Positions 28,119 through 61,369 of a stretch of DNA of 64,000 nt are shown here, in pieces; positions within the stretch are counted from its first letter, which is position 1; every line of letters starts with the position of its first letter. Location: contig JANLSZ010000354.1 of the NCBI GenBank assembly GCA_031362685.1, forward strand, positions 1,139 through 65,138. Reading direction: 5' to 3'. The stretch comes from Vicinamibacteria bacterium (GTDB lineage: Bacteria; Acidobacteriota; Vicinamibacteria; Fen-336; JAGNNV01). Position numbers and translations under genes: made by a program. Below the pieces are notes generated by a model. It worked only from the letters and a program-made list of their open reading frames with translations. It did no database searches and was not told where the DNA came from.

Positions 28119-28250
28119 AGATTGCTTCAGGCCATGCGGACGGACAGTGGCCTTCGCAATGACGGTCATGGGGTTCCTTCCCAAAGTCACGGAAGTAGTC
28201 CGTGCCCCGCTCGCAATGACGGTGGTGGGTTTCTCCCCACCGTCACGTCC
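28119..28250. repeat. Copies of the CGTCATTGCGAGG...GAAGCAATC palindromic-element family (one full arm plus a partial copy)
   Basis: gattgcttcaggccatgcggacggacagtggccttcgcaatgacgg is followed by ctcgcaatgacggtggtgggtttctccccaccgtcacg. They lie in a 570-bp intergenic region. Confidence 0.7.
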
Positions 28251-50795: not shown

Positions 50796-51179
50796 TCAGC
50801 TCTTCGCGGCCGGTGCTGACTGCGGCTTGCCGATGTGCGGTTCGAGTCTCGACAGGATCAGCTTCGTGAGTTCGGGGTGGCCCCGCTTCCATCGGTCTTC
50901 GATGTCGAGGTCGACCACCTGTTTCGACAATCCGGGGAAGCGCCGCTTGATCGCGGTGACGTGGTGGTCTTCGCTTTCGTTCATGACGAAAACATGGTCG
51001 GCCCAGTCGAGGAGTTCGCGGGTCACCACCACCTGCGCAAAAGGGGCGACGCCGCAGGACCTGATTTCGAAACGAGGATCGTTCTCGTAAAGGTCCTCCG
51101 CCGTCTTGGAGCGATCGACATTGGCCGTGCACACGAACAGGATGTGTTGGCGGTGTTCGCCTTTGCCGAAAAAGTCCAT
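50796..51179 (-). CDS. Low-molecular-weight phosphotyrosine-phosphatase-like protein
   Basis: ILFVCTANVDRS is the CX5R(S/T) P-loop. The protein is 127 aa. Confidence 0.55.
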   Translation of the reverse strand: MDFFGKGEHRQHILFVCTANVDRSKTAEDLYENDPRFEIRSCGVAPFAQVVVTRELLDWADHVFVMNESEDHHVTAIKRRFPGLSKQVVDLDIEDRWKRGHPELTKLILSRLEPHIGKPQSAPAAKS

Positions 51180-51347
51180 GGGGAGCGCGGAATTCTAGCG
51201 CGGAGGCCTCGCCCAACCTCCGCCGGGCGCCGACCCAATGCGACCTATACTGCGGCGCAGTATTTCCGACCGATCCAGGAATCACCCACGGTGGAGCGGG
51301 CTCTCCTTCAGGTTGGACCTCCTCAACTGACACTGGAGATCAGGACG

Positions 51348-52751
51348 ATGAATCGACATCCTCGCCGCGCGCTTGCTCTGCGAGCCCGCGCCTCCGTGTT
51401 TGGAGCGGCCACCTTGCTGTTTCAAATACCCGCGGCTCATGCGGCTAAAACTCCCTCCTACGCCATCACCAAGGCCAAAGTGGTCACGGTATCCGGCGCG
51501 GTCCTGGACAACACCACCGTAGTCATGCGCGATGGGGTGGTGATGGACGTGGGGCCAAACGCCACGATTCCCAAGGACGCGCGCGTTTTCGACGGAACCG
51601 GACTCACCATCACACCCGGTCTCATCGACGCCTATTCGGGCGCCGGAATGCCAGCGCTGCGAGCTTCGGGCGGCGGTCCGGGTGGCGGAGGCGGAGGGGC
51701 GGCGGCGGGCGCGGCGGCGGGTCCGACCACAAACCCTATCGCCCCGGCCTCCAACATCTACGAGCAGGTTCGAGCGGTCGAAGCGTTGAAGGCGCGCGAC
51801 TTCGGGGTCACCACGATAGTCGCCGTCCCCCGAGAGGGCCTGGTGTTTGGCGCGGCCGCGGTGATGAATCTGGTGGGCGACCGCCTCGAAGCGATGGTGG
51901 TGAAACCGAACATCGCCCTGGCCGCGAGTATGGCGACCCTCGGCCAGCGGTACCCCGGATCGCTCATGGGCACCATGGCCTTCTTCCGTCAGGCCCTCAT
52001 GGACGGCGCGTATCACCGCATCGAGATGGCGGCCTATGAAAAGGCGCCCATGGGAAAGAAGCGGCCGGCCTTCGACCCGGACCTCGACGTCTGGGCCGAG
52101 GTGGCGGCAGGGATCACTCCCCTGCTGCTTCAGACCCCCCGAATCGGAGATCTGCGCCGGGCCTTCGCGCTGGGCGATGAGTTCAAGTTGAAGCTGGTGC
52201 TCGCCGGAAACACCCACGCCTCCGAAGAGGCGGCGTTGCTCAAGGAGCGAAGGCCCGCGCTGCTGGTGAGCGTCAACTTCGATCCGCCGCGGACGGGTGG
52301 CTTCTTCGGCGGGATCGACGACGACAAGGATCGGGCGGAAATCGAAAGCGCCGAGAGGAACCCGGGAGTCCTCGACAAGGCGGGGGTGAGGTTCGCCCTC
52401 GTCTCCGGGTTTGCCCCGGACTTTCTGGTGGGGATCCGAAAGGCCATCGAGAAAGGCCTGCCCCGCGACACGGCGCTGCGCGCGGTGACTCTCACCCCCG
52501 CGGAGATTCTGGGCGTGGCCGACCGGATGGGGAGCATCGAGAAGGGCAAAATCGCGAATGTCGTGGTCTGGTCGGGAGAGCCGCTCAGCAAGGACGCGAA
52601 GATCAAGATGGTCTTCGTCGATGGCGAGCTGTACGAGCCCGAGGAGAAACCCGCCCGCCCGCCGGGCGCCGGAGGCTCGCCGCCACCAGGCGAAGACCGA
52701 GGCGAGACAACGCGGGACCCCGTTCGTGGACAGGTTGAGGTGCAGCGATGA
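51348..52751 (+). CDS. Secreted amidohydrolase-superfamily paralog lacking the HxH metal motif
   Basis: Has a signal peptide. ...TITPGLIDAYSGAG... occupies the position where HxH is expected, followed by a Gly/Ala-rich insert. It is the C-terminal part of listed ORF 50835..52751. Confidence 0.65.
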   Translation: MNRHPRRALALRARASVFGAATLLFQIPAAHAAKTPSYAITKAKVVTVSGAVLDNTTVVMRDGVVMDVGPNATIPKDARVFDGTGLTITPGLIDAYSGAGMPALRASGGGPGGGGGGAAAGAAAGPTTNPIAPASNIYEQVRAVEALKARDFGVTTIVAVPREGLVFGAAAVMNLVGDRLEAMVVKPNIALAASMATLGQRYPGSLMGTMAFFRQALMDGAYHRIEMAAYEKAPMGKKRPAFDPDLDVWAEVAAGITPLLLQTPRIGDLRRAFALGDEFKLKLVLAGNTHASEEAALLKERRPALLVSVNFDPPRTGGFFGGIDDDKDRAEIESAERNPGVLDKAGVRFALVSGFAPDFLVGIRKAIEKGLPRDTALRAVTLTPAEILGVADRMGSIEKGKIANVVVWSGEPLSKDAKIKMVFVDGELYEPEEKPARPPGAGGSPPPGEDRGETTRDPVRGQVEVQR

Positions 52752-54130
52752 GAAACCGGACATCGAAGTGCGCTCTCGCCCTCGCTCTCGGCGCCCTCGC
52801 CTCCGCTGGCGAGCGGTCCGAAGGGCAGGACATCACCGCGATCACCAACGCGAAGATCATGACCGTGAGCGCGGCCGGAATCATCGAAAAGGGAACCATC
52901 CTGATCGCGGGCGGCAAGATCACCGCGGTTGGGGCCAACGTAACCGTGCCGGCGGGCGCCATCATCATCGACGCATCGGGTCGAGTCGTCACTCCCGGTC
53001 TGATCGACGCACACTCCCACACCGCGGTCGAAGACGGTGTGAACGAATGCACGAACATCGTAACCGCGGAGGTCAGGGTGAGGGATGCTCTCGACCCGCG
53101 CGACATCAGTATTTACCGGCAACTGGCGGGTGGCGTCACCGCCGCCAACATTCTTCATGGCTCGTGCAACTCGATCGGCGGCCAGAACGCGACGATCAAG
53201 ATGCGCTGGGGCGCGGTCTCGGGCGACGCCCTCATCTTTGTGGGCGCGCCCCCGGGGATCAAGTTCGCTCTCGGCGAAAACCCGAAGTTCGCGGGTCCCG
53301 GCGGAGCGATCAAGCGCTATCCCGCCACTCGCATGGGGGTCGAAGTGTCGATCCGGAACGCCTTCCTCGAAGCCAGGGCCTACAAGAAGTCCTGGGACGA
53401 CTACGAGGCCGCGGTGAAGGCGGCCGGTGCGAAGAAGCCCACGAAGAGCGGAGGCCCGATTCATTCGGGCCGAGGCGACGGGGGTCCGGGGGGCGGGTCC
53501 GTGCAACGCCCCCCGGCTCCAAGGAAGGATCTGCAGATGGAGGCTTTGAAGGAAATCCTGGAGGGCAAGCGTCTCGTCCACGCTCACTCATATCGAGCCG
53601 ACGAAATCCTGATGCTCATCAACGTCGCCAACGAAATGGGCTTCAAGATCGCCACCTTCCAGCACGTGCTCGAGGGCTACAAGGTCGCCACCGAGATTGC
53701 GAAGCATGGCGCGGGCGCGTCGACGTTCTCCGACTGGTGGAGCTACAAGATGGAGGCCTACGACGCGATCCCCTATAACGCGGCCATCATGGCGAGTCAC
53801 GGGGTGGTGGTGTCGCTCAACTCCGACTCGGATGAACTGGCGCGACGCCTGTACTGGGAGGCCGCGAAGACTGTCCGCTACGGCGGTGTTTCCGAGGACG
53901 AGGCCTTCAAGATGGTGACCATCAATCCCGCGAAACAGCTCCGCATCGACAAATGGGCGGGCTCCATCGAAGTGGGCAAGGACGCGGACCTCGCGATTTT
54001 CAAATCGCATCCTTTCGCGCCCGACACGCGGGTGGAAATGACTCTGGTCGACGGCAAGGTGCTGTTCGATCGAAGCAAGGATGTGGCCGCCCGCAAAGGG
54101 GTAGCGGCGACGCTCGGAGGTGGACAATGA
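52748..54130 (+). CDS. Secreted amidohydrolase (COG1228-like), catalytic motifs intact
   Basis: Contains VVTPGLIDAHSHTAVEDG (HxH), ...LVHAHSYR..., ...FQHVLEG... and ...SLNSDSDE. The ATGA overlap links it to the upstream stop. Confidence 0.8.
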   Translation: MRNRTSKCALALALGALASAGERSEGQDITAITNAKIMTVSAAGIIEKGTILIAGGKITAVGANVTVPAGAIIIDASGRVVTPGLIDAHSHTAVEDGVNECTNIVTAEVRVRDALDPRDISIYRQLAGGVTAANILHGSCNSIGGQNATIKMRWGAVSGDALIFVGAPPGIKFALGENPKFAGPGGAIKRYPATRMGVEVSIRNAFLEARAYKKSWDDYEAAVKAAGAKKPTKSGGPIHSGRGDGGPGGGSVQRPPAPRKDLQMEALKEILEGKRLVHAHSYRADEILMLINVANEMGFKIATFQHVLEGYKVATEIAKHGAGASTFSDWWSYKMEAYDAIPYNAAIMASHGVVVSLNSDSDELARRLYWEAAKTVRYGGVSEDEAFKMVTINPAKQLRIDKWAGSIEVGKDADLAIFKSHPFAPDTRVEMTLVDGKVLFDRSKDVAARKGVAATLGGGQ

Positions 54131-55440
54131 GAATCCGATACTCCTCGCTGACGGCTTCGGCGACCCTCGCCTGCTCACTCACGAGCCTGGCTTTCGCAGC
54201 TGACGGCCCTCTCGTGATCGCCGGCGCCAGAGTCGTGACCGTTGCGGGCGCGGTGCTCGAGAGCGCGTCCATCATCATCCAGAACGGCCGGATCGCGTCG
54301 GTGGGCAGCGGCCTCACCGCGCCCGCGGGCGCGCGCGTCATCGACGGCCGGGGGAAGACGGTGTACCCGGGACTCTTCGACGGCCTCACCTACCTGGGCC
54401 TGGCCGAAGTCACCCAGGGCGCCCCGGGGACCGTGGACACGAACGAGACCGGCGACATCAACCCGCACGCGAAGACGTGGGTCGCCTTGCATCCGGACAG
54501 CGAGCTCCTGCCCGTGGCGCGCGCCTTCGGCATCACCACCGCCCTTTCCGCTCCGGGGAGCGCCATGGGGGGTCGGAGCCTGATCGCGGGCCAGAGCGCC
54601 ATCATCCGCACCGTCGGCGATACGCCGATGGCTCTCACCGTGAAAGCGCCGGTGGCCCTGCACATGCGCTACCCGACCGGAGCGCCGGTCATCGATTTCT
54701 CGCAAGGGCCTCCGAATATCGAGCCCAAGACGTTCGAGCAGCGCCTGCAGGAGAGAAAGAAGAACCAGGAGAAAGACCTCCTCCGGCTGAAGAGCTTGAT
54801 CGAAGAGGCGCGGGCCTATGGCGAGGGCCAGGCCGCGGGAACGGCGCTCAAGGTCGACCTGCCGATGGAAGCGCTCGCTCTTGCCGCAACCGGAAAGATC
54901 CCGGTGGTCATGCGCGCGAACGCCGAGGCCGACATCAAGGGCGCCATCCAGTTTGCGGTCGAGAACAAGATCAAGCTGATCGTCGCGGGCGGTGCCGAAG
55001 CGTGGCGCTGCACCGAGGATCTCAAGAAGAACGACGTCGCCGTGCTCCTGGGCGTCGATCAACTGCCCACGCGCGAAGGCGATCCCTACGACGCGGCCTA
55101 CGCGAACGCCGCGACTCTCCACAAGGCGGGCGTCCGCTTTGCCATCGTGACCGACGACGCGTCCAATTCGCGCAACCTTCCTTTCGAAGCCGCCATGGCC
55201 TACGCGTTCGGCCTGCCCCGCGAGGCCGCGCTTCGTTCGATCACGCTTTCGCCCGCGGAAATCTTCGGGGTGGCGGCCGCTCTCGGCTCGATCGAAGTGG
55301 GCAAGACTGCAACCCTGATCATGACCAACGGGGACATCCTCGACCATCGCACCAGCATCACCAACGTGATCATCGACGGGCAGGAGACGTCCCTCGACAA
55401 CAAGCACCAGCGCCTCTACGACAAGTACAAAGGTCGGTAG
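54127..55440 (+). CDS. Secreted amidohydrolase-superfamily paralog lacking the HxH metal motif
   Basis: Has a signal peptide. ...VYPGLFDGLTYLG... sits in place of HxH. It is collinear with 51348..52751, and an ATGA overlap links it to the upstream stop. Confidence 0.65.
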   Translation: MRIRYSSLTASATLACSLTSLAFAADGPLVIAGARVVTVAGAVLESASIIIQNGRIASVGSGLTAPAGARVIDGRGKTVYPGLFDGLTYLGLAEVTQGAPGTVDTNETGDINPHAKTWVALHPDSELLPVARAFGITTALSAPGSAMGGRSLIAGQSAIIRTVGDTPMALTVKAPVALHMRYPTGAPVIDFSQGPPNIEPKTFEQRLQERKKNQEKDLLRLKSLIEEARAYGEGQAAGTALKVDLPMEALALAATGKIPVVMRANAEADIKGAIQFAVENKIKLIVAGGAEAWRCTEDLKKNDVAVLLGVDQLPTREGDPYDAAYANAATLHKAGVRFAIVTDDASNSRNLPFEAAMAYAFGLPREAALRSITLSPAEIFGVAAALGSIEVGKTATLIMTNGDILDHRTSITNVIIDGQETSLDNKHQRLYDKYKGR

Positions 55441-55483
55441 GAGCTCACTCACATCGCTCCACTATCCGCCAACCGCTCTCGGG

Positions 55484-55545
55484 ACGTCATTGCGAGGGCC
55501 CCGTCCGTTCGCAGCGGCCCGAAGCAACCCCCTCCTCCAACGACC
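55484..55545 (+). repeat. Single arm of the CGTCATTGCGAGG...CGAAGCAACCCCCTCC element
   Basis: acgtcattgcgagggccccgtccgttcgcagcggcccgaagcaaccccctcctccaacgacc. It matches the arms at 57394-57498 and 58612-58668. Confidence 0.75.
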
Positions 55546-55626
55546 CCGCCCGCGGCTCCCCGCGGATTCGAGCTGCAGCTCTCCTGTCCGCACTGTGGCG
55601 GCCCCTTTATCGCCACCGACGCGACG

Positions 55627-57210
55627 GTGAGCCACACCTGCGAGCACTGCAAGTCGCTCCTGATCGTCGAGGCGCCCGAACGCGAGGAGGTCTTCGTCGA
55701 GCCCGCCCGGGTCAAGCCGGTCGAGATCCTCGAGACGCTCATTGGCTATCGCGTCGACGCCCACCGTGCGGCCCTCGTCGCCCAGTACAGCGACCCAGAG
55801 GGAAACCCGCCTCCCGACATCATGATCGAGGCGCTGCTGAAGCGTTTCGAGTCCCGTCTGCGCGAATCCGCGAAGATCGTCGATTGCCGGCTCGTTCAGG
55901 TTCCCTACCGCCAGACCGCGGGGAAGATCGTCCAGGCCGTCCTTGGCCGTCACAGCGACGGGCCCAAGATCGCGCGCCTCCGCGCCTACATCGCAGAGCA
56001 GACCGCCCCCGGCTACGACCCCGCCCGCTTCAACCTGCGCGATGCCGGACTGCGCCTCGGTCGCAGCATCTTCAAGCCGCTGCTGAGCGCCGACGTGCCG
56101 AAGCTCGGCCATTTCGTGCCGCGCGCCCCCGCGGACGCTTCGCGGCGCGACCTCGAGAAGTGGCGCGGCCAGAATCTCGAAGCCGGCTTCGAATCGGTGG
56201 CGAAGCAGGGCCAGGTCGCAGTCACGTTCGAGGCCACGGTGTATCGCCCCTATTACCTGGTCCGGGCCTTCCTCGACCAGGGCGACGAGACCGTCCTCTT
56301 CGATGGTGGCTTCGGGACTATCGCGGGCTACCTCAGCGACGAAGAACACGACGCGTTCACCCGCGGCAAGGACGCGGACCCGCTCGGGACCGAAGGCGCC
56401 TCGTTCCGGCAGGTTGCCGTGGTGTCCTCACGCTGCCCCAACTGCGGCATGGACCCAGAGCTCCCCGACGATGCGGTGGCGTCGATCTGCGCCAATTGCC
56501 ACGCGGGCGTGGCCCCGTCGCCCAAAGGTCTCGTGCTGGCGAACTACGACCGCGAAGAAGGCACGACCCCGGATCGGACGAGCGCGCTGCTGCCCTTCTG
56601 GCGGTTCCCTTTTCAGATCGGAATCGTGGGCGCCCCGGCCGTAAAGACGCTCGAAGCGTATGCCGCCGCCATTTTTCCGCAAGGGGTTCCCAAGGGCTTC
56701 TCACCTCAAGGCGATTCCGTGTACGTCCCCGCCTGGCGCCTTCTCACCACGGAGGCCGGGGACAAGACGTTCTCCGATCTGGCCCAGTCCATTCACGGGC
56801 GGGCGTGGAACTGGACCCCGGATCGGGTGGGCCTCGACGCCCGGCCCCGGTTCGTTCCGGTGTCGCTCCCCGAGGGCGAGGCGAAGAACCTCGCCGGGAC
56901 GGTGCTCTTCGCGCTTCACACCAAGGCTTCGGCGGCTCGGCTCAACACTCTGCTGATCAAGCGCACGCTCTTCGACGCGAAGCTCTCCTTCGGCAAGGGC
57001 ACGGTGGCGCTTATCTCTTTCGAGGCGCAGGACAAGGTCTACGCGCGACCCGAGGTGAGCGTGCCGTGCCTCCTCATCGACGGCGGCCCGGCGCTCGCCG
57101 CCCGGCGCGTTACGGTGCAGGCGGCGGCGGCAGCCTTCGCGGCGGCGCAGAAACGCCCGTCGATGGCGGACCGGGTCAGGACGTCGCAGTTCACCGGGGG
57201 CGAGGAATGA
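55627..57210 (+). CDS. Soluble double zinc-ribbon protein (hypothetical); true start probably upstream at a non-canonical codon
   Basis: Has CEHC at the N-terminus and a second ribbon CPNCG...CANCH mid-protein, with no TM. The upstream in-frame CPHCGG (55585-55602) would complete the first ribbon (see findings). Confidence 0.6.
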   Translation: MSHTCEHCKSLLIVEAPEREEVFVEPARVKPVEILETLIGYRVDAHRAALVAQYSDPEGNPPPDIMIEALLKRFESRLRESAKIVDCRLVQVPYRQTAGKIVQAVLGRHSDGPKIARLRAYIAEQTAPGYDPARFNLRDAGLRLGRSIFKPLLSADVPKLGHFVPRAPADASRRDLEKWRGQNLEAGFESVAKQGQVAVTFEATVYRPYYLVRAFLDQGDETVLFDGGFGTIAGYLSDEEHDAFTRGKDADPLGTEGASFRQVAVVSSRCPNCGMDPELPDDAVASICANCHAGVAPSPKGLVLANYDREEGTTPDRTSALLPFWRFPFQIGIVGAPAVKTLEAYAAAIFPQGVPKGFSPQGDSVYVPAWRLLTTEAGDKTFSDLAQSIHGRAWNWTPDRVGLDARPRFVPVSLPEGEAKNLAGTVLFALHTKASAARLNTLLIKRTLFDAKLSFGKGTVALISFEAQDKVYARPEVSVPCLLIDGGPALAARRVTVQAAAAAFAAAQKRPSMADRVRTSQFTGGEE

Positions 57211-57212
57211 GG

Positions 57213-57498
57213 GGTTGGTAGTGGTGGGAGGGGGTTGCTTCGTCGCAGTACCGAAACGAATGGCTCCTCGCAATGACGTGAGGTGGGTACGGGCGGACAG
57301 CACGAGCTTGGTAGTTGGGACCGTCGCATGTGGTACAGCGAACCCTACCGCGCCCCCTGCACTGCGCCTCGCGCCACCCCGACGGCGCGTCACCCCACTA
57401 CCAGGCTCGTGCTGTCCGCCCGTACCCCCCTCACGTCATTGCGAGGCCCCAGTCCGTTGGTGGTGGGCCGAAGCAACCCCCTCCCACCACTACCAACC
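57213..57498. repeat. Composite ~286-bp palindrome (two ~105-nt inverted arms, 74-nt spacer) of the same element family
   Basis: The left arm is 57213-57319 and the right arm is 57394-57498. The terminal 30 nt are a perfect inverse complement (ggttggtagtggtgggagggggttgcttcg). The inner blocks ctcgcaatgacgtgagg and gggtacgggcggacagcacgagc are also shared. Confidence 0.85.
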
Positions 57499-57506
57499 AA
57501 GTCTGC

Positions 57507-58598
57507 TCAGTTCGATCCGGCGATCGAGATCACCACGATGGCGACGATGATCGCGGCCACCGCGGCGAAGAAGATCTTCACCCACGAGAGCGGGTGCTCG
57601 CCCGCGATCTTGCCGGTGTATCCGTTCACCACCACCTGGTAAGGCTTCGCGCGGTAGGCATAGGAGAGCAGCCAGACTGGAACCAGGACGTGCTTGAAGG
57701 TCTGGGCCGAGTACTGCTGCTGGGTCTGCAGATTGCGGGAGGTGTCGCCCGGGACCTGCTGAGCACACAGCGCTTCGGTCTTCGCGTGCATTTCGACGCG
57801 CCAGACCTGGGCGGCGCTCGCGAGGTCGATCTGATACCGCTCGACCACGAAACCGGCCAGGTACCCCGAGTCGTACGGCGCCGCCTCCTTGGTCGGGAAA
57901 GGTTCGACCTGGCGAAGGAGAGTGGGATGCACGCCCTTCGAGCCGCAGATCAGTTCGTCGTCGAAGAAGTGATCGAGTTGACCCGAAGCCGGACTCCAGC
58001 GCGTATGGCGGACCTGGCGCGTCCGGCGCTGGCCGTTCTCGGTGTAGCTCTCGGTGGTGTAGTAATAGGTGCCCGATTCCGCCGTCCACGCAGCGTGCAC
58101 TCGCGCGTCAAACGTCCAGTACGGCACATACAGGCCGCGGAGAGTGTCGGTCATGGCCTTCTGCCCGAGCGCATTCGGGGCGAACCAGCGTGAGCCGTAC
58201 CAGCGCCGCATGTCTTCACGCACCCGCGACTCCGACACCTTCATGGGCAGCAGGCTCTCGGGCCGGATGATCTCGTTCACACCCTCGTAGGGCACCAGCG
58301 ACGCCGACCCGCAGAACTCGCAGTTCTGGGCCACGCGGTTCGGTTCGAACGACGAGATGGCCTGGCAGCTCTGGCACTTCACCTCGATGGCTTCGCGGGC
58401 GAGGCCGGTCTCGCGACCCTGGAGGGAGGCGAGGGCCTGCGGGAGATCGTGTTCAACGATCTCGCCCTCGGTCTTGAGCTCCGCCGCGGACTCGGTGCCG
58501 CAGAAGCCGCAGATCAGAGCGTTCTTACCCGGATTCCAGGTGGCCTGCGCCCCGCACGCGGGGCAGGAGTATTTGACGCTTGCGAGCACTTCACTCAT
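57507..58598 (-). CDS. YdjG-like double zinc-ribbon protein with C-terminal TM anchor
   Basis: The ribbons are CPACG...CGFCG and CQSCQ...CEFCG. The C-terminal hydrophobic helix is IFFAAVAAIIVAIVVISIA. The position next to an SPFH gene mirrors B. subtilis ydjG-ydjI. The ORF is listed to 58610 (TTG), but ATG 58598 is preferred. Confidence 0.65.
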   Translation of the reverse strand: MSEVLASVKYSCPACGAQATWNPGKNALICGFCGTESAAELKTEGEIVEHDLPQALASLQGRETGLAREAIEVKCQSCQAISSFEPNRVAQNCEFCGSASLVPYEGVNEIIRPESLLPMKVSESRVREDMRRWYGSRWFAPNALGQKAMTDTLRGLYVPYWTFDARVHAAWTAESGTYYYTTESYTENGQRRTRQVRHTRWSPASGQLDHFFDDELICGSKGVHPTLLRQVEPFPTKEAAPYDSGYLAGFVVERYQIDLASAAQVWRVEMHAKTEALCAQQVPGDTSRNLQTQQQYSAQTFKHVLVPVWLLSYAYRAKPYQVVVNGYTGKIAGEHPLSWVKIFFAAVAAIIVAIVVISIAGSN

Positions 58599-58611
58599 GG
58601 ACGCTCGCAAG

Positions 58612-58727
58612 CGTCATTGCGAGGAGCCGCTCCGTTGGCGCTGCGACGAAGCAATCCCCTCCCACCACGACCAAGCCCGCGAGATTGCTTCGTCGCAGCA
58701 CCAACGGAGTGGCTCCTCGCAATGACG
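58612..58727. repeat. 116-nt near-perfect hairpin (45-nt arms, 26-nt loop) of the same element family
   Basis: cgtcattgcgaggagccgctccgttggcgctgcgacgaagcaatc pairs with gattgcttcgtcgcagcaccaacggagtggctcctcgcaatgacg, with 2 mismatches in 45. It lies between two co-directional genes. Confidence 0.85.
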
Positions 58728-58751
58728 GCGCGTTTTAGAAGCTCAGCGCCG

Positions 58752-59837
58752 TCAACTCTTCAGAAATGCGTCGAGGGCTGCCCGCGTGATCCGGAACTGA
58801 GAACCGATCTTCTTCGCCTTCAGGTCGCCGGATTCGATTGTAGCGATCACGTCGGCTTCCGAAACGCCCATGAGCTTCGCGGCATCCGCCGGCCCGAGCA
58901 GTTCGGGAATCGACGAGGCCGCCGCCGCTGGGGCCGCACTCGCCACCGGAAACGCGCCGGCCGCGGCCTGCGAGCCGGGCTGGGCCATGCCCTGCATCAT
59001 CTGCTGGGCCATGGCAAAGCCCATCGCCATCTCCATGGGACCGCCGGCGCCGCCTCCCGCACCGCCAGGCTGAACCACCGACTGCCCCATCTGGTACTTC
59101 ACGTAGTCGTTGAGATTGCCGAGGGTGGCCATGGCACCCTTCTTGTCGATGGCCTGCTCGACTTCGGGCGGTACCGAGACGTTTTCGATCAGGAAGGTCG
59201 AGAGTTCGAGGCCGTACTTCTCGCGGATCTTCGGATTGATGACGTTCAGGAGGGCGTCGCCCAACTCGCCGTATCGGCCGACCAGGCCCACCACCGGAAT
59301 CTTCGCGGCGCCGAGCGCGTCCGAGAACATCGAGACGAGGCGCGAGCGCATGGTGTCGGCGAATTCGTCGATCCGGAAGTTGGTGTCGGTGCCCGCCACT
59401 TCCTTCAGGAAGACCTTCGGATCCACCACCCGGAAGTCGTAGGTGCCGTAAGCACGGACGCGCACGATGCCGAAGTCCGGATCGCGCATCATGATGGGAT
59501 TGGCGGTCCCCCACTTGTTCCCGGTGAAGAGACGGGTGTTGACATAGTAGATGTCGGCCTTGAAGGGGGACTCGAAACCGTACTTCCAGCCCTTGAGCCT
59601 CGACAGCACGGGGATGTTGTCGCTGACCAGGGTGTGCTTGCCGGGAAAGAAAGTGTCGCCGAACTGGCCCAGGTACACGAATTGAGCGAGCTGCGATTCG
59701 CGCACGATGAGCTGCGCGCCGTTCTTGATTTCCTTGTCATCGTCGGGGAACAGCCAGGAAATGGTGTCGCGCGAGTCATCCTGCCACTGGATGATTTCGA
59801 GCAACTGGCTGGTGATGAAACTCTTCAGGTCGACCAT
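58752..59837 (-). CDS. SPFH/band-7 (YdjI / 'virion core protein'-like, COG4260-type) protein with C-terminal excisionase-type HTH
   Basis: The N-terminal ~270 aa match the YdjI-like SPFH pattern (...IVRESQLAQFVYLGQ...FKADIYYVN...). A Gly/Ala/Met/Gln linker follows. The C-terminal LLGPADAAKLMGVSEADVIATIESGDLKAKKIGSQFRITRAALDAFL resembles HTH_17. AAGGAG precedes the ATG. Confidence 0.7.
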   Translation of the reverse strand: MVDLKSFITSQLLEIIQWQDDSRDTISWLFPDDDKEIKNGAQLIVRESQLAQFVYLGQFGDTFFPGKHTLVSDNIPVLSRLKGWKYGFESPFKADIYYVNTRLFTGNKWGTANPIMMRDPDFGIVRVRAYGTYDFRVVDPKVFLKEVAGTDTNFRIDEFADTMRSRLVSMFSDALGAAKIPVVGLVGRYGELGDALLNVINPKIREKYGLELSTFLIENVSVPPEVEQAIDKKGAMATLGNLNDYVKYQMGQSVVQPGGAGGGAGGPMEMAMGFAMAQQMMQGMAQPGSQAAAGAFPVASAAPAAAASSIPELLGPADAAKLMGVSEADVIATIESGDLKAKKIGSQFRITRAALDAFLKS

Positions 59838-59891
59838 GGAAATCTCCTTCTGGCGCTCTGGACGAGCGGGAACTGCGATTCTGCCCGCGGT

Positions 59892-60752
59892 TTAGCGATT
59901 GCGCAGCGCCTGGATGCGAACCTCGAGGGGAGGATGGGTCGAGAACAAGGCCATGAAGCCGGGAGCGCCGGAGATCTTGAAGCTCGCGAGCGCGGGAGCC
60001 CGAGGATCCATGGTCTGCGGACCTTCGGCGAGGCGCTGCAAAGCCGCCACCATGTTCTCGCTGCCCGCCAAGGCAGCGCCGCCCGCGTCGGCCCGGAACT
60101 CGCGGTGTCGCGAAAACGACGCGGTGACCAGCGAGCCCGCGATTCCGAGGACGATCTCGGCCACCACCCGGACCCCGAAGTACATCATCGACGAACCCCG
60201 CTCACCCCGCGAGTTGCCCGCGACCACGGAGGCGATGATCCTGGAAATGAACATCACGAAAGCGTTCATGACGCCCTGGAGCAGAGTCATGGTCACCATG
60301 TCGCCGTTGGCGACGTGGGACAGTTCATGACCGAGCACGGCTTCAAGCTCGTTGCGCTTCATGGCGCGCAGGATGCCGGTGGAGACCGCCACCAGGCTGC
60401 GATTCCTCGACGGTCCGGTGGCAAACGCGTTGATCTCGGGTGAATTGTAGATCCCGACCTCGGGCATGGGGAGCTGCGCCTGCTGGGCCAGCCTCTGCAC
60501 GGTTCGGTACAGCCAATCCGCATCGGGGTTGCCGGTATCTCCGTCGACGAGCTGCACGCCCATGCCGCGCTTGGCCATCCACCGGGAGATAAGCAGCGAG
60601 ATGAACGCGCCGCCCATGCCCCAGACGAAGCAGAAGATGGCCATCGGCACCAGGCCGCCGTCCGAGCGGACGCCGAGCAGGCCGAGGATGATCGAGATCG
60701 TGGTGACGACCGCGAGGTTGGTGAGCAGGAATAGAAAGAGTCGCTTGGCCAC
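59892..60752 (-). CDS. htpX: Zinc metalloprotease HtpX (M48 family)
   Basis: Has the HELSHVANGD (HExxH) motif, four TM segments, and the typical N-terminus MAKRLFLFLLTNLAVV. Confidence 0.9.
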   Translation of the reverse strand: MAKRLFLFLLTNLAVVTTISIILGLLGVRSDGGLVPMAIFCFVWGMGGAFISLLISRWMAKRGMGVQLVDGDTGNPDADWLYRTVQRLAQQAQLPMPEVGIYNSPEINAFATGPSRNRSLVAVSTGILRAMKRNELEAVLGHELSHVANGDMVTMTLLQGVMNAFVMFISRIIASVVAGNSRGERGSSMMYFGVRVVAEIVLGIAGSLVTASFSRHREFRADAGGAALAGSENMVAALQRLAEGPQTMDPRAPALASFKISGAPGFMALFSTHPPLEVRIQALRNR

Positions 60753-60943: not shown

Positions 60944-61369
60944 ATGGAAATGGAGCGGACAATGGCGAATCTAGCGTTGGCCTTGGCGGCACTTCAGGAG
61001 GGGGGCGGCAGCGAAGGACCGGGGCTGGCGGGCGGCCTGCTCGGCCTGGGCTTCCTCCTGTTTATGGGAGCTTTCGTGCTGCTCATGATCGCCTCCGTGT
61101 GGAAGGTCTTCGTGAAGGCGGGCAAGCCCGGATGGGCTTCGCTCATCCCGATCTACAACATCATCGTGCTACTGGAGATCACTGGCAAGCCGATCTGGTG
61201 GATCGTCTTGTTCTGCATACCGTTCGTGAACTTCATCGCCGCGTTCCTGGTGATGATCCCCCTGGCGGAAAAGTTCGGCAAGGGCACGGGCTTCGGGATC
61301 GGGCTGGTGTTTCTGTCGTTCGTGTTCTTCCCAATGCTGGCTTTCGGGGACGCTCATTACCGAGGCTGA
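60944..61369 (+). CDS. DUF5684-like small membrane protein
   Basis: WKVFVKAGKPGWASLIPIYNIIVLLEITGKPIWW...FGKGTGFGIGLVF is the characteristic pattern of this family. The call is from memory. Confidence 0.55.
   Translation: MEMERTMANLALALAALQEGGGSEGPGLAGGLLGLGFLLFMGAFVLLMIASVWKVFVKAGKPGWASLIPIYNIIVLLEITGKPIWWIVLFCIPFVNFIAAFLVMIPLAEKFGKGTGFGIGLVFLSFVFFPMLAFGDAHYRG

What the first reader, a model, noticed from the sequence alone, without database searches (positions are those of the whole stretch)
55441..60752. htpX / SPFH-HTH / zinc-ribbon module with a convergent second zinc-ribbon gene, interleaved with large palindromes
**Gene layout.** On the minus strand, htpX (59892-60752), an SPFH/YdjI-like gene (58752-59837) and a YdjG-like double-Zn-ribbon TM protein (57507-58598) are co-directional. 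A soluble double-Zn-ribbon protein (about 55573-57210) converges on them.

**Relation to known systems.** SPFH plus TFIIB-type Zn-ribbon partners recall the B. subtilis ydjFGHI envelope-stress operon. Here there is no PspA or YdjH in the window. An HtpX membrane-quality-control protease heads the array, and the SPFH protein carries a DNA-binding-type HTH.

**Repeat context.** Every intergenic gap except htpX-SPFH is filled by a member of one palindromic repeat family. I do not recognise this combination as a described system. It could be a membrane-stress or damage sensor with a direct transcriptional or nucleic-acid output.
Basis: partly seen in the sequence, partly recalled or inferred. Interest (0 to 1): 0.7.

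Follow-up and report, generated by a model that had tools for sequence, protein, structure and literature searches.

The report
SPFH-HTH and zinc-ribbon anchor gene pair
The locus holds a two-gene unit found in many bacterial phyla, a soluble SPFH scaffold protein ending in a DNA-binding-type domain plus a membrane-anchored zinc-ribbon partner, related to part of a Bacillus membrane-stress operon, while the neighbouring protease gene, the second zinc-ribbon gene and the palindromes are local additions.

Summary

**Supported.**
- The 363-aa protein with two zinc ribbons (ZnR) and one transmembrane helix (TM) is a full-length homologue of B. subtilis YdjG/SamG (BLASTP 6e-33).
- The SPFH protein is a homologue of YdjI/SamI (2e-29). 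YdjI's C-terminal zinc ribbon is replaced here by an HTH_17 domain.

**Not supported: a four-gene system.**
- In 80 genomes carrying the YdjG-like gene, the SPFH-HTH gene lies directly upstream on the same strand in 72 of 77 evaluable loci. These span Verrucomicrobiota, Betaproteobacteria, Acidobacteriota and others.
- htpX and the convergent 527-aa gene are neighbours only in close Vicinamibacteria.
- More distant members of the 527-aa family sit in unrelated contexts.
- No PspA or YdjH was detected in the window or in the 80 genome loci.

**Repeats.** The palindromes are real (RNA folds of -222 and -104 kcal/mol). They come and go between close relatives, so they look like REP- or MITE-like insertions.

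**Verdict.** This is an uncharacterised variant of the SamG/SamI module that lacks PspA and SamH and carries an HTH. It probably forms a membrane-tethered SPFH scaffold. Whether the HTH binds DNA is untested. Interest is moderate.

The parts
59892..60752 (-). htpX, an M48 zinc metalloprotease of the inner membrane. It is a lineage-specific upstream neighbour, probably co-transcribed here (54-nt gap). It is not part of the conserved pair.
   Evidence: NF003965 HtpX at 1.4e-114, above the cut-off. PF01435. HELSH motif and four hydrophobic segments. Adjacent to the pair only in L003-L005, L084, L085 and L087.
58752..59837 (-). Soluble SPFH (Band_7_1) protein, a YdjI/SamI homologue. After the SPFH core come a G/M/Q-rich segment, a P/A-rich linker and a C-terminal HTH_17 domain (residues 313-360) in place of YdjI's zinc ribbon.
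   Evidence: PF13421 at 1.8e-84 and PF12728 at 5.6e-9. TIGR01764. BLASTP against YdjI 2e-29. No TM. Conservation of the HTH across 64 orthologues.
58612..58727 (.). Palindromic repeat between the SPFH-HTH and ydjG-like genes: one full unit and one partial inverted unit, with 45-nt arms that are 96% complementary.
   Evidence: RNA fold -103.7 kcal/mol, z -11.5. A single unit sits at the same site in L003 and more copies in L087; it is absent in L085, L004 and L005.
57507..58598 (-). YdjG/SamG-like tail-anchored protein: two N-terminal CxxC...CxxC zinc ribbons, a conserved central domain of about 230 aa, and one C-terminal TM helix.
   Evidence: BLASTP against B. subtilis YdjG 6e-33 over 362 columns. 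CxxC motifs and TM. More than 7,600 homologues. Alignment A2.
57211..57506 (.). Composite palindrome filling the convergent gap: two inverted repeat units flank an inner palindrome of about 154 nt.
   Evidence: RNA fold -222 kcal/mol, z -19.8. The corresponding gap is 10-63 nt in L003, L004, L005 and L085, and has a different composition in L087.
55573..57210 (+). Soluble protein with two zinc ribbons (the '527-aa family'), convergent on the pair and co-directional with three upstream amidohydrolase genes. Its start codon is unresolved.
   Evidence: No Pfam or NCBIfam match. Homologues of 560-590 aa. AF2 model pLDDT 87.6 with no PDB fold match. 845 representatives at E <= 0.001. Only weak profile similarity to the YdjG family.
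55485..55554 (+). Single repeat unit upstream of the 527-aa-family gene. It occupies what gene callers in relatives read as N-terminal coding sequence.
   Evidence: The same unit sits at the same place in L085 and L087.

Best explanation
**What is shown.** The core is a conserved two-gene unit.
- A soluble SPFH (Band_7_1) protein, homologous to B. subtilis YdjI/SamI.
- A tail-anchored double-zinc-ribbon protein, homologous to YdjG/SamG.
- The unit has no PspA and no YdjH/SamH partner nearby.
- YdjI's C-terminal zinc ribbon is replaced by an HTH_17 domain.

**Inferred mechanism, by homology to B. subtilis.**
- The YdjG-like protein sits on the cytoplasmic face of the inner membrane, held by its single C-terminal helix.
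- It recruits oligomers of the TM-less SPFH protein there. The result is a membrane-associated scaffold whose assembly reports on or buffers membrane state.
- The HTH hangs on a flexible linker of about 50 residues as the docking or output end of the scaffold. Its ligand, DNA or a protein partner, is unknown.

**Local additions.**
- htpX is a lineage-specific upstream neighbour, probably co-transcribed, which fits a membrane quality-control theme.
- The convergent 527-aa gene belongs with the amidohydrolase genes on its own strand.
- The palindromes are REP- or MITE-like insertions into intergenic DNA.
For: - **Homology.** YdjG-like against YdjG 6e-33 over the full length. SPFH against YdjI 2e-29, including the shared G/M/Q-rich segment.
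- **Architecture.** No TM in the SPFH protein and one C-terminal TM in the partner.
- **Pairing.** 72 of 77 evaluable loci from at least five phylum-level groups have SPFH-HTH directly upstream on the same strand. No other neighbour cluster occurs in more than 15 of the 80 loci.
- **B. subtilis precedent.** YdjI is soluble and needs YdjG and YdjH to reach the membrane (PMC8581546). SamI restrains SamGH signalling (bioRxiv 10.64898/2026.02.06.704340).
- **HTH conservation.** The HTH is highly conserved, including the KGKKIG..WRIT stretch.
- **Local additions.** htpX and the 527-aa gene adjoin the pair only in close relatives. Distant 527-family genes lie elsewhere.
- **Repeats.** Their presence varies among relatives with 83-93% identical proteins.
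Against: - No experiment exists for this variant.
- In B. subtilis the bacterial two-hybrid contacts of YdjI were with YdjH and PspA, not clearly with YdjG. YdjH is missing here, so direct SPFH-YdjG binding is an assumption.
- Five Verrucomicrobial loci have the YdjG-like gene without an adjacent SPFH gene.
- The AF2 model of the YdjG-like protein was poor (pLDDT 59), so its fold could not be checked.
[quoted passage not shown] A functional tie to the protease in this lineage therefore cannot be excluded.
Confidence: 0.6

Rival explanations
1. htpX, SPFH-HTH, the ZnR-TM protein and the soluble ZnR protein form one four-component membrane-damage sensor. The SPFH scaffold regulates the HtpX protease, as HflK/C regulates FtsH, and the soluble ZnR protein acts as a further partner.
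For: - The arrangement htpX > SPFH-HTH > ydjG-like, with the 527-aa gene convergent, is kept in seven Vicinamibacteria loci: the window, L003-L005, L084, L085 and L087.
- The htpX-SPFH gaps are short.
- SPFH proteins are known partners of membrane proteases (established knowledge: HflK/C-FtsH, and QmcA as a suppressor of an ftsH htpX double mutant).
- There is weak profile similarity between the 527-aa family and the YdjG family (hhalign E about 1e-4, probability 36-54%).
Against: - None of the other evaluable loci has htpX in this arrangement; one (L078) has only a 33%-identical M48 gene downstream. These include other Vicinamibacterales (L041, L048, L064).
- 527-family members at 40-45% identity are not near SPFH or YdjG genes.
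- The 527-aa gene is convergent and co-directional with the amidohydrolase genes.
- The profile similarity is below a confident level and covers mainly a zinc ribbon.
Confidence: 0.15
2. The SPFH-HTH protein is itself a transcription factor held at the membrane. The YdjG-like anchor sequesters it, and membrane stress changes its assembly so that the HTH domains gain or lose access to DNA. The principle resembles PspA-PspF or other membrane-sequestered regulators.
For: - HTH_17 and the excisionase-family DNA-binding domain score above their curated cut-offs.
- The HTH and its basic stretch are conserved in 64 orthologues across phyla.
- Loss of SamI in B. subtilis causes global transcriptional changes (bioRxiv 10.64898/2026.02.06.704340).
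Against: - No motif is conserved upstream of the pair across phyla. Only a motif specific to Verrucomicrobia was seen, and it could simply be a promoter.
- In related Band_7_1 proteins the same C-terminal position holds a zinc ribbon or a SHOCT domain (PMC3581485). That points to a generic docking role.
- MamR, a membrane-organelle protein, also matches this HTH.
- Large SPFH oligomers are unusual as DNA-binding factors.
Confidence: 0.2
3. The locus is an anti-phage or mobile-element defence module, and the palindromes are part of a mobile island.
For: - Weak PADLOC hits: PDC-S64 at 0.0015 to the zinc-ribbon region and mad1 at 9e-5 to the HTH.
- The repeats cluster at this locus.
Against: - The PADLOC hits cover only generic ZnR or HTH stretches.
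- Base composition is flat across the window.
- The pair sits among housekeeping genes in varied chromosomal contexts and is highly conserved in sequence.
- No integrase or transposase was seen among the conserved neighbour clusters or the neighbours that were annotated.
Confidence: 0.03

Closest known systems
B. subtilis pspA-ydjGHI (pspA-samGHI) operon
   Same: - YdjG/SamG and YdjI/SamI homologues are present, adjacent and co-directional.
- The SPFH protein is soluble and has the same G/M/Q-rich post-SPFH segment.
- The partner has two N-terminal zinc ribbons and one C-terminal TM.
   Different: - No PspA and no YdjH/SamH (TPM-domain protein) in the window or in the 80 genome loci, by tblastn.
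- Gene order is SPFH then anchor, whereas B. subtilis has ydjG...ydjI.
- YdjI's C-terminal CxxC...CxxC ribbon is replaced by HTH_17.
- The hosts are diderm phyla.
SPFH-protease and SPFH-NfeD pairs (HflK/C-FtsH, QmcA-YbbJ)
   Same: An SPFH gene lies next to a membrane protease gene (htpX) in this lineage, and the theme is membrane protein quality control.
   Different: - The SPFH protein is of the Band_7_1 type and has no TM.
- htpX adjacency is not conserved outside close Vicinamibacteria.
- No NfeD gene turned up among the neighbours that were annotated.
Band_7_1 proteins with C-terminal SHOCT or zinc-ribbon domains (COG4260-type)
   Same: The same SPFH core is followed by a low-complexity linker and a small C-terminal module (PMC3581485).
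   Different: The terminal module here is an excisionase/MerR-type HTH_17. NCBI already names such proteins 'SPFH and helix-turn-helix domain-containing protein', but the papers searched hold no functional study.
REP/BIME-like or MITE-like intergenic palindromes
   Same: They are short units of about 70 nt in direct and inverted orientation, strictly intergenic, form very stable hairpins, and vary in copy number between close relatives.
   Different: - No match to any Rfam family above its gathering score.
- Terminal repeats, target duplications and genome-wide abundance were not established.
- The clustering is striking: 5 of the window's 7 core copies lie in 3.3 kb.

Membership tests
YdjG/SamG family | Full-length sequence homology to B. 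subtilis YdjG | tested here: met
   BLASTP 6e-33, 22% identity over 362 columns, covering residues 12-363 of 367. The YdjG sequence was recovered from L002 using the primer published in PMC8581546.
YdjG/SamG family | Two N-terminal zinc ribbons, a central domain and one C-terminal TM helix | tested here: met
   CPAC/CGFC and CQSC/CEFC motifs. One hydrophobic segment at residues 335-363. Architecture as described for YdjG in PMC11237479.
YdjG/SamG family | NTF2-like / YpeB-related fold of the central domain | tested here: inconclusive
   AF2 model pLDDT 59. No significant PDB match.
YdjI/SamI (Band_7_1 SPFH) family | Band_7_1 SPFH domain and no TM segment | tested here: met
   PF13421 at 1.8e-84. 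BLASTP against YdjI 2e-29. No hydrophobic segment.
YdjI/SamI (Band_7_1 SPFH) family | C-terminal double-CxxC zinc ribbon | tested here: not met
   No CxxC motif. Residues 313-360 match HTH_17 instead.
pspA-ydjGHI (Psp-type) operon | PspA (IM30/ESCRT-III) gene in the unit | tested here: not met
   tblastn with B. subtilis PspA gave no hit in the window at E <= 10 beyond noise, and none at 1e-4 in the 80 loci. Remote homologues could be missed, and the rest of the genome was not available.
pspA-ydjGHI (Psp-type) operon | YdjH/SamH (TPM-domain membrane protein) gene in the unit | tested here: not met
   tblastn with YdjH was negative. No conserved third gene appeared in ORF clustering.
HtpX (M48B) protease | Equivalog-level HMM match, HExxH motif and TM segments | tested here: met
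   NF003965 at 382 bits, cut-off 245. HELSH at residue 142 and four hydrophobic segments.
HTH_17 / excisionase-type DNA-binding domain | Domain match above the curated cut-off | tested here: met
   PF12728 at 36.6 bits (cut-off 27). TIGR01764 at 34.2 bits (cut-off 28.8).
HTH_17 / excisionase-type DNA-binding domain | Binds DNA | not testable with these tools
   Indirect evidence only: no operator conserved across phyla upstream of the pair.
REP/MITE-like repeats | Multi-copy, intergenic, palindromic, variable between close relatives | tested here: met
REP/MITE-like repeats | Genome-wide dispersal, and terminal inverted repeats with target-site duplications | not tested
   Only this window and a few related loci were available. 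There are two degenerate copies near 28.1-28.2 kb.

The most novel reading that the evidence does not exclude
The SPFH-HTH and YdjG-like pair is a widespread signalling module that needs no PspA. In this reading the SPFH scaffold is itself a DNA-binding regulator. A tail-anchored zinc-ribbon protein holds it at the inner membrane, and it is released or re-assembled on membrane perturbation. That would link membrane state directly to transcription in Verrucomicrobiota, Acidobacteriota and Betaproteobacteria.
Probability: 0.2. Interest if true: 0.7.

Novelty: new variant of a known kind. Interest (0 to 1): 0.4.

Why it matters
The B. subtilis SamG/SamH/SamI-PspA system is the only studied example of a Band_7_1 SPFH protein.

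This locus shows that a stripped-down SamI/SamG-like core is conserved and strongly constrained across several diderm phyla. It has no PspA and no SamH nearby, and it ends in an HTH domain. The SPFH core is 65-76% identical between phyla.

That suggests the SPFH protein and its zinc-ribbon anchor are the ancestral functional unit. It also gives a concrete, testable candidate for how an SPFH scaffold could be wired to an output.

Tried and rejected
- **Four-gene module.** Rejected by neighbourhood analysis.
- **Defence system.** PADLOC gave only weak hits to generic ZnR or HTH stretches.
- **Known RNA family for the palindromes.** Rfam returned only sub-threshold miRNA-hairpin matches, which are spurious.
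- **Palindromes as conserved regulatory structures.**
  - The SPFH-ydjG hairpin is a single unit in L003 and absent in L085, L004 and L005.
  - The convergent-gap element does not align with L087.
  -.
- **Fold assignment.** The 527-aa model is confident (pLDDT 87.6) but has no PDB match with E < 0.04 or TM > 0.1. The YdjG-like model is too poor to use.
- **Solved relatives.** Sequence searches of the PDB for the SPFH-HTH protein and for the YdjG-like family found none; the YdjG-like profile gave only weak zinc-ribbon matches (E >= 0.15).
- **527-aa family as a YdjG paralogue.** hhalign gave only 36-54% probability over a zinc ribbon, a helix and a 'VPYW' strand. An exhaustive profile search showed a separate family of 845 representatives. 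The relationship is left open.
- **Shared operator upstream of the pair.** None was found across phyla.
- **Promoter and terminator scan.** Uninformative.

Full report
**1. What is in the sequence**

The window has about 64% G+C with no compositional break at the locus. The closest database proteins are from Vicinamibacteria, in the Acidobacteriota.

- **htpX, 59892-60752 (-).** It matches the NCBIfam HtpX equivalog NF003965 at 382 bits against a cut-off of 245. It has a HELSH motif and four hydrophobic segments.
- **SPFH gene, 58752-59837 (-).** It encodes a 361-aa protein.
  - Band_7_1 (PF13421) matches at 1.8e-84.
  - Residues 313-360 match HTH_17 (PF12728, 36.6 bits, cut-off 27) and the excisionase-family domain TIGR01764.
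  - It has no TM segment.
- **ZnR-TM gene, 57507-58598 (-).** It encodes a 363-aa protein with CPAC/CGFC and CQSC/CEFC zinc-ribbon motifs and one C-terminal TM helix. ATG 58598 gives the 363-aa length of the homologues, which supports it over TTG 58610.
- **Convergent gene ending at 57210 (+).** It encodes a soluble protein with two zinc ribbons and no Pfam or NCBIfam match.

**2. The repeats**

Its sequence is CGTCATTGCGAGG...CGAAGCAAyCCCCTCCCACCAC.

- A single unit lies at 55485-55554.
- Two inverted units at 57211-57279 and 57434-57503 flank an inner palindrome.
- One unit and a partial inverted unit lie at 58612-58727.
- The 12-nt core has 5 exact copies, all within 3.3 kb. With one mismatch allowed the window has 7 copies; shuffled sequence gives 0.48.
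- These are the only large inverted repeats in the 64-kb window.
- As RNA the two palindromes fold at -222 kcal/mol (z -19.8) and -104 kcal/mol (z -11.5).
- No Rfam family reaches its gathering score.

**3. Homology to the B. subtilis operon**

I recovered a B. subtilis-type pspA-ydjGHI locus (L002) by searching for the ydjG primer published in PMC8581546.

- The 363-aa protein aligns with YdjG from end to end (E 6e-33). It shares the architecture described for YdjG: two zinc ribbons, a central domain and a TM segment (PMC11237479).
- The SPFH protein aligns with YdjI (E 2e-29). The alignment includes the G/M/Q-rich segment after the SPFH core.
- YdjI's terminal FCPNCG...FCPNCG ribbon is replaced by the HTH.
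- tblastn with B. subtilis PspA and YdjH finds nothing in the window.

Membership of the YdjG and YdjI families is met. Membership of a Psp-type operon is not.

**4. Which genes belong together**

The best 80 loci were kept. They come from Verrucomicrobiota, Betaproteobacteria, Acidobacteriota, Lentisphaerales, Abditibacterium and a 'Deltaproteobacteria' MAG.

- tblastn with the window's proteins shows the SPFH core plus HTH directly upstream on the same strand in 72 of 77 evaluable loci.
  - Three loci are cut off at a contig edge.
  - Five Verrucomicrobial loci have unrelated neighbours.
- De novo ORF clustering finds no other neighbour in more than 15 of the 80 loci.
- htpX, the GSU2086-family gene and the 527-aa-family gene accompany the pair only in L003-L005, and also in L084, L085 and L087. 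All of these are Vicinamibacteria.
- Other Vicinamibacterales loci (L041, L048, L064) lack them.
- 527-family members at 40-45% identity lie next to unrelated genes (L083, L088, L089, L090).
- An exhaustive profile search shows the 527-aa family is a family of its own, with 845 representatives at E <= 0.001.
- Its profile similarity to the YdjG family is weak: hhalign probability 36-54%, E about 1e-4, covering one zinc ribbon, a helix and a 'VPYW' strand.

The conserved unit is therefore the pair. The four-gene module is local synteny.

**5. The repeats are not part of the unit**

The repeats differ among relatives whose proteins are 83-93% identical.

- L085 has only the copy upstream of the 527-family gene.
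- L003 has only a single unit before the ydjG-like start codon.
- L087 has copies in all three gaps, but its convergent gap does not align with the window's.
- L004 and L005 have none, and their gaps are 10-90 nt.

This turnover fits REP/BIME- or MITE-like elements.

A hairpin between the SPFH and anchor genes could still change their expression ratio in this strain. That is inference only.

**6. Structures**

- The 527-aa protein gives a confident AF2 model (pLDDT 87.6, pTM 0.81). It has no PDB fold match (best E 0.048, TM < 0.1).
- The YdjG-like model is poor (pLDDT 59), and its matches are not meaningful.
- Neither the SPFH-HTH protein nor the YdjG-like family has a solved relative by sequence.

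**7. How it probably works**

The homologies, the domain architectures and the pairing are shown. The rest is inferred from B. subtilis.

- In B. subtilis, soluble YdjI needs YdjG and YdjH to reach the membrane (PMC8581546). SamI restrains SamGH signalling (bioRxiv 10.64898/2026.02.06.704340).
- By analogy, the tail-anchored YdjG-like protein would recruit the SPFH-HTH oligomer to the cytoplasmic face of the inner membrane.
- The caveat is that YdjI's reported two-hybrid contacts were with YdjH and PspA, and both are absent here.

The HTH is conserved across all 64 orthologues examined, including the basic KGKKIG..WRIT stretch. That argues for a conserved ligand. Two observations argue against assuming the ligand is DNA.

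- Related Band_7_1 proteins carry a zinc ribbon or a SHOCT domain in the same position (PMC3581485).
- No upstream motif is shared across phyla.

DNA binding is left as the most novel reading, at about 0.2.

**8. Novelty**

NCBI already labels the fusion 'SPFH and helix-turn-helix domain-containing protein'. The papers searched hold no study of it.

It is a new variant of a known kind: the SamG/SamI core without PspA or SamH, with an HTH, in diderm phyla. The sequence conservation across phyla is unusually high, with the SPFH core 65-76% identical. Interest is moderate.

Noticed in passing
window 55441-55627: The 527-aa-family gene has no ATG, GTG or TTG between the upstream stop codon (55438-55440) and GTG 55627. 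That GTG lies after the first CPHC knuckle of the conserved zinc ribbon. In L085 and L087 a GTG upstream of the same repeat unit gives a 587-aa product that reads through the unit; the window lacks that GTG. Possible starts are CTG 55573, or ATC 55453, which lies 9 nt after an AGGAG.
   Followed up: partly
window 60944-61369 (+): A DUF5684 membrane-protein gene sits between htpX and the GSU2086-family gene and overlaps the end of the latter by 13 nt. In L003, L004, L005 and L085 that gap is only 73-131 nt, so the gene is an insertion in this genome.
   Followed up: partly
L017, L022, L027, L051, L071, L072 and L066, between the SPFH-HTH and ydjG-like genes: Casimicrobiaceae and other Betaproteobacteria carry a conserved secreted protein of about 145 aa between the two genes; it ends ...DGDYA...WRV.GY.I. 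In L066 it is fused in frame to the SPFH ORF (499 aa). I did not run this family against Pfam.
   Followed up: partly
L009, L018, L019, L029 (gap ORFs); L070:3226-4104: In Chthoniobacterales the gap holds a small ORF with a prepilin-like GFTLLEV N-terminus. In L070 a DNA methylase gene (N6_N4_Mtase) is inserted between the pair.
   Followed up: no
Upstream of SPFH-HTH in L006, L013, L015, L025, L026, L028, L031, L032, L037, L038, L049, L062: Verrucomicrobial loci share an upstream motif, GATTACAcAA ... AAATTnTACTTyC ... N19-22 ... ATGATAc. It could be a promoter or an operator, and it is not seen in other phyla.
   Followed up: partly
window 28121-28166 and 28206-28222: There are two degenerate copies of the same repeat unit (GTCATTGCGAAG and GTCATTGCGAGC cores) away from the locus.
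   Followed up: no
window 50835-55440 (+): Three tandem amidohydrolase genes lie directly upstream of the 527-aa-family gene and are co-directional with it. The arrangement is kept in L084 and L085, with at least the adjacent amidohydrolase also seen in L004 and L005. The 527-aa gene may belong to that transcription unit rather than to the SPFH pair.
   Followed up: partly
L012, L014, L027, L043, L045, L051, L059, L060, L066, L072, L076, upstream of SPFH-HTH: In Betaproteobacteria the gene just upstream of the pair encodes a DsbC/DsbG-like periplasmic protein with a signal peptide and a CPxC motif. This assignment rests on reading the sequence only and looks like lineage-specific synteny.
   Followed up: no
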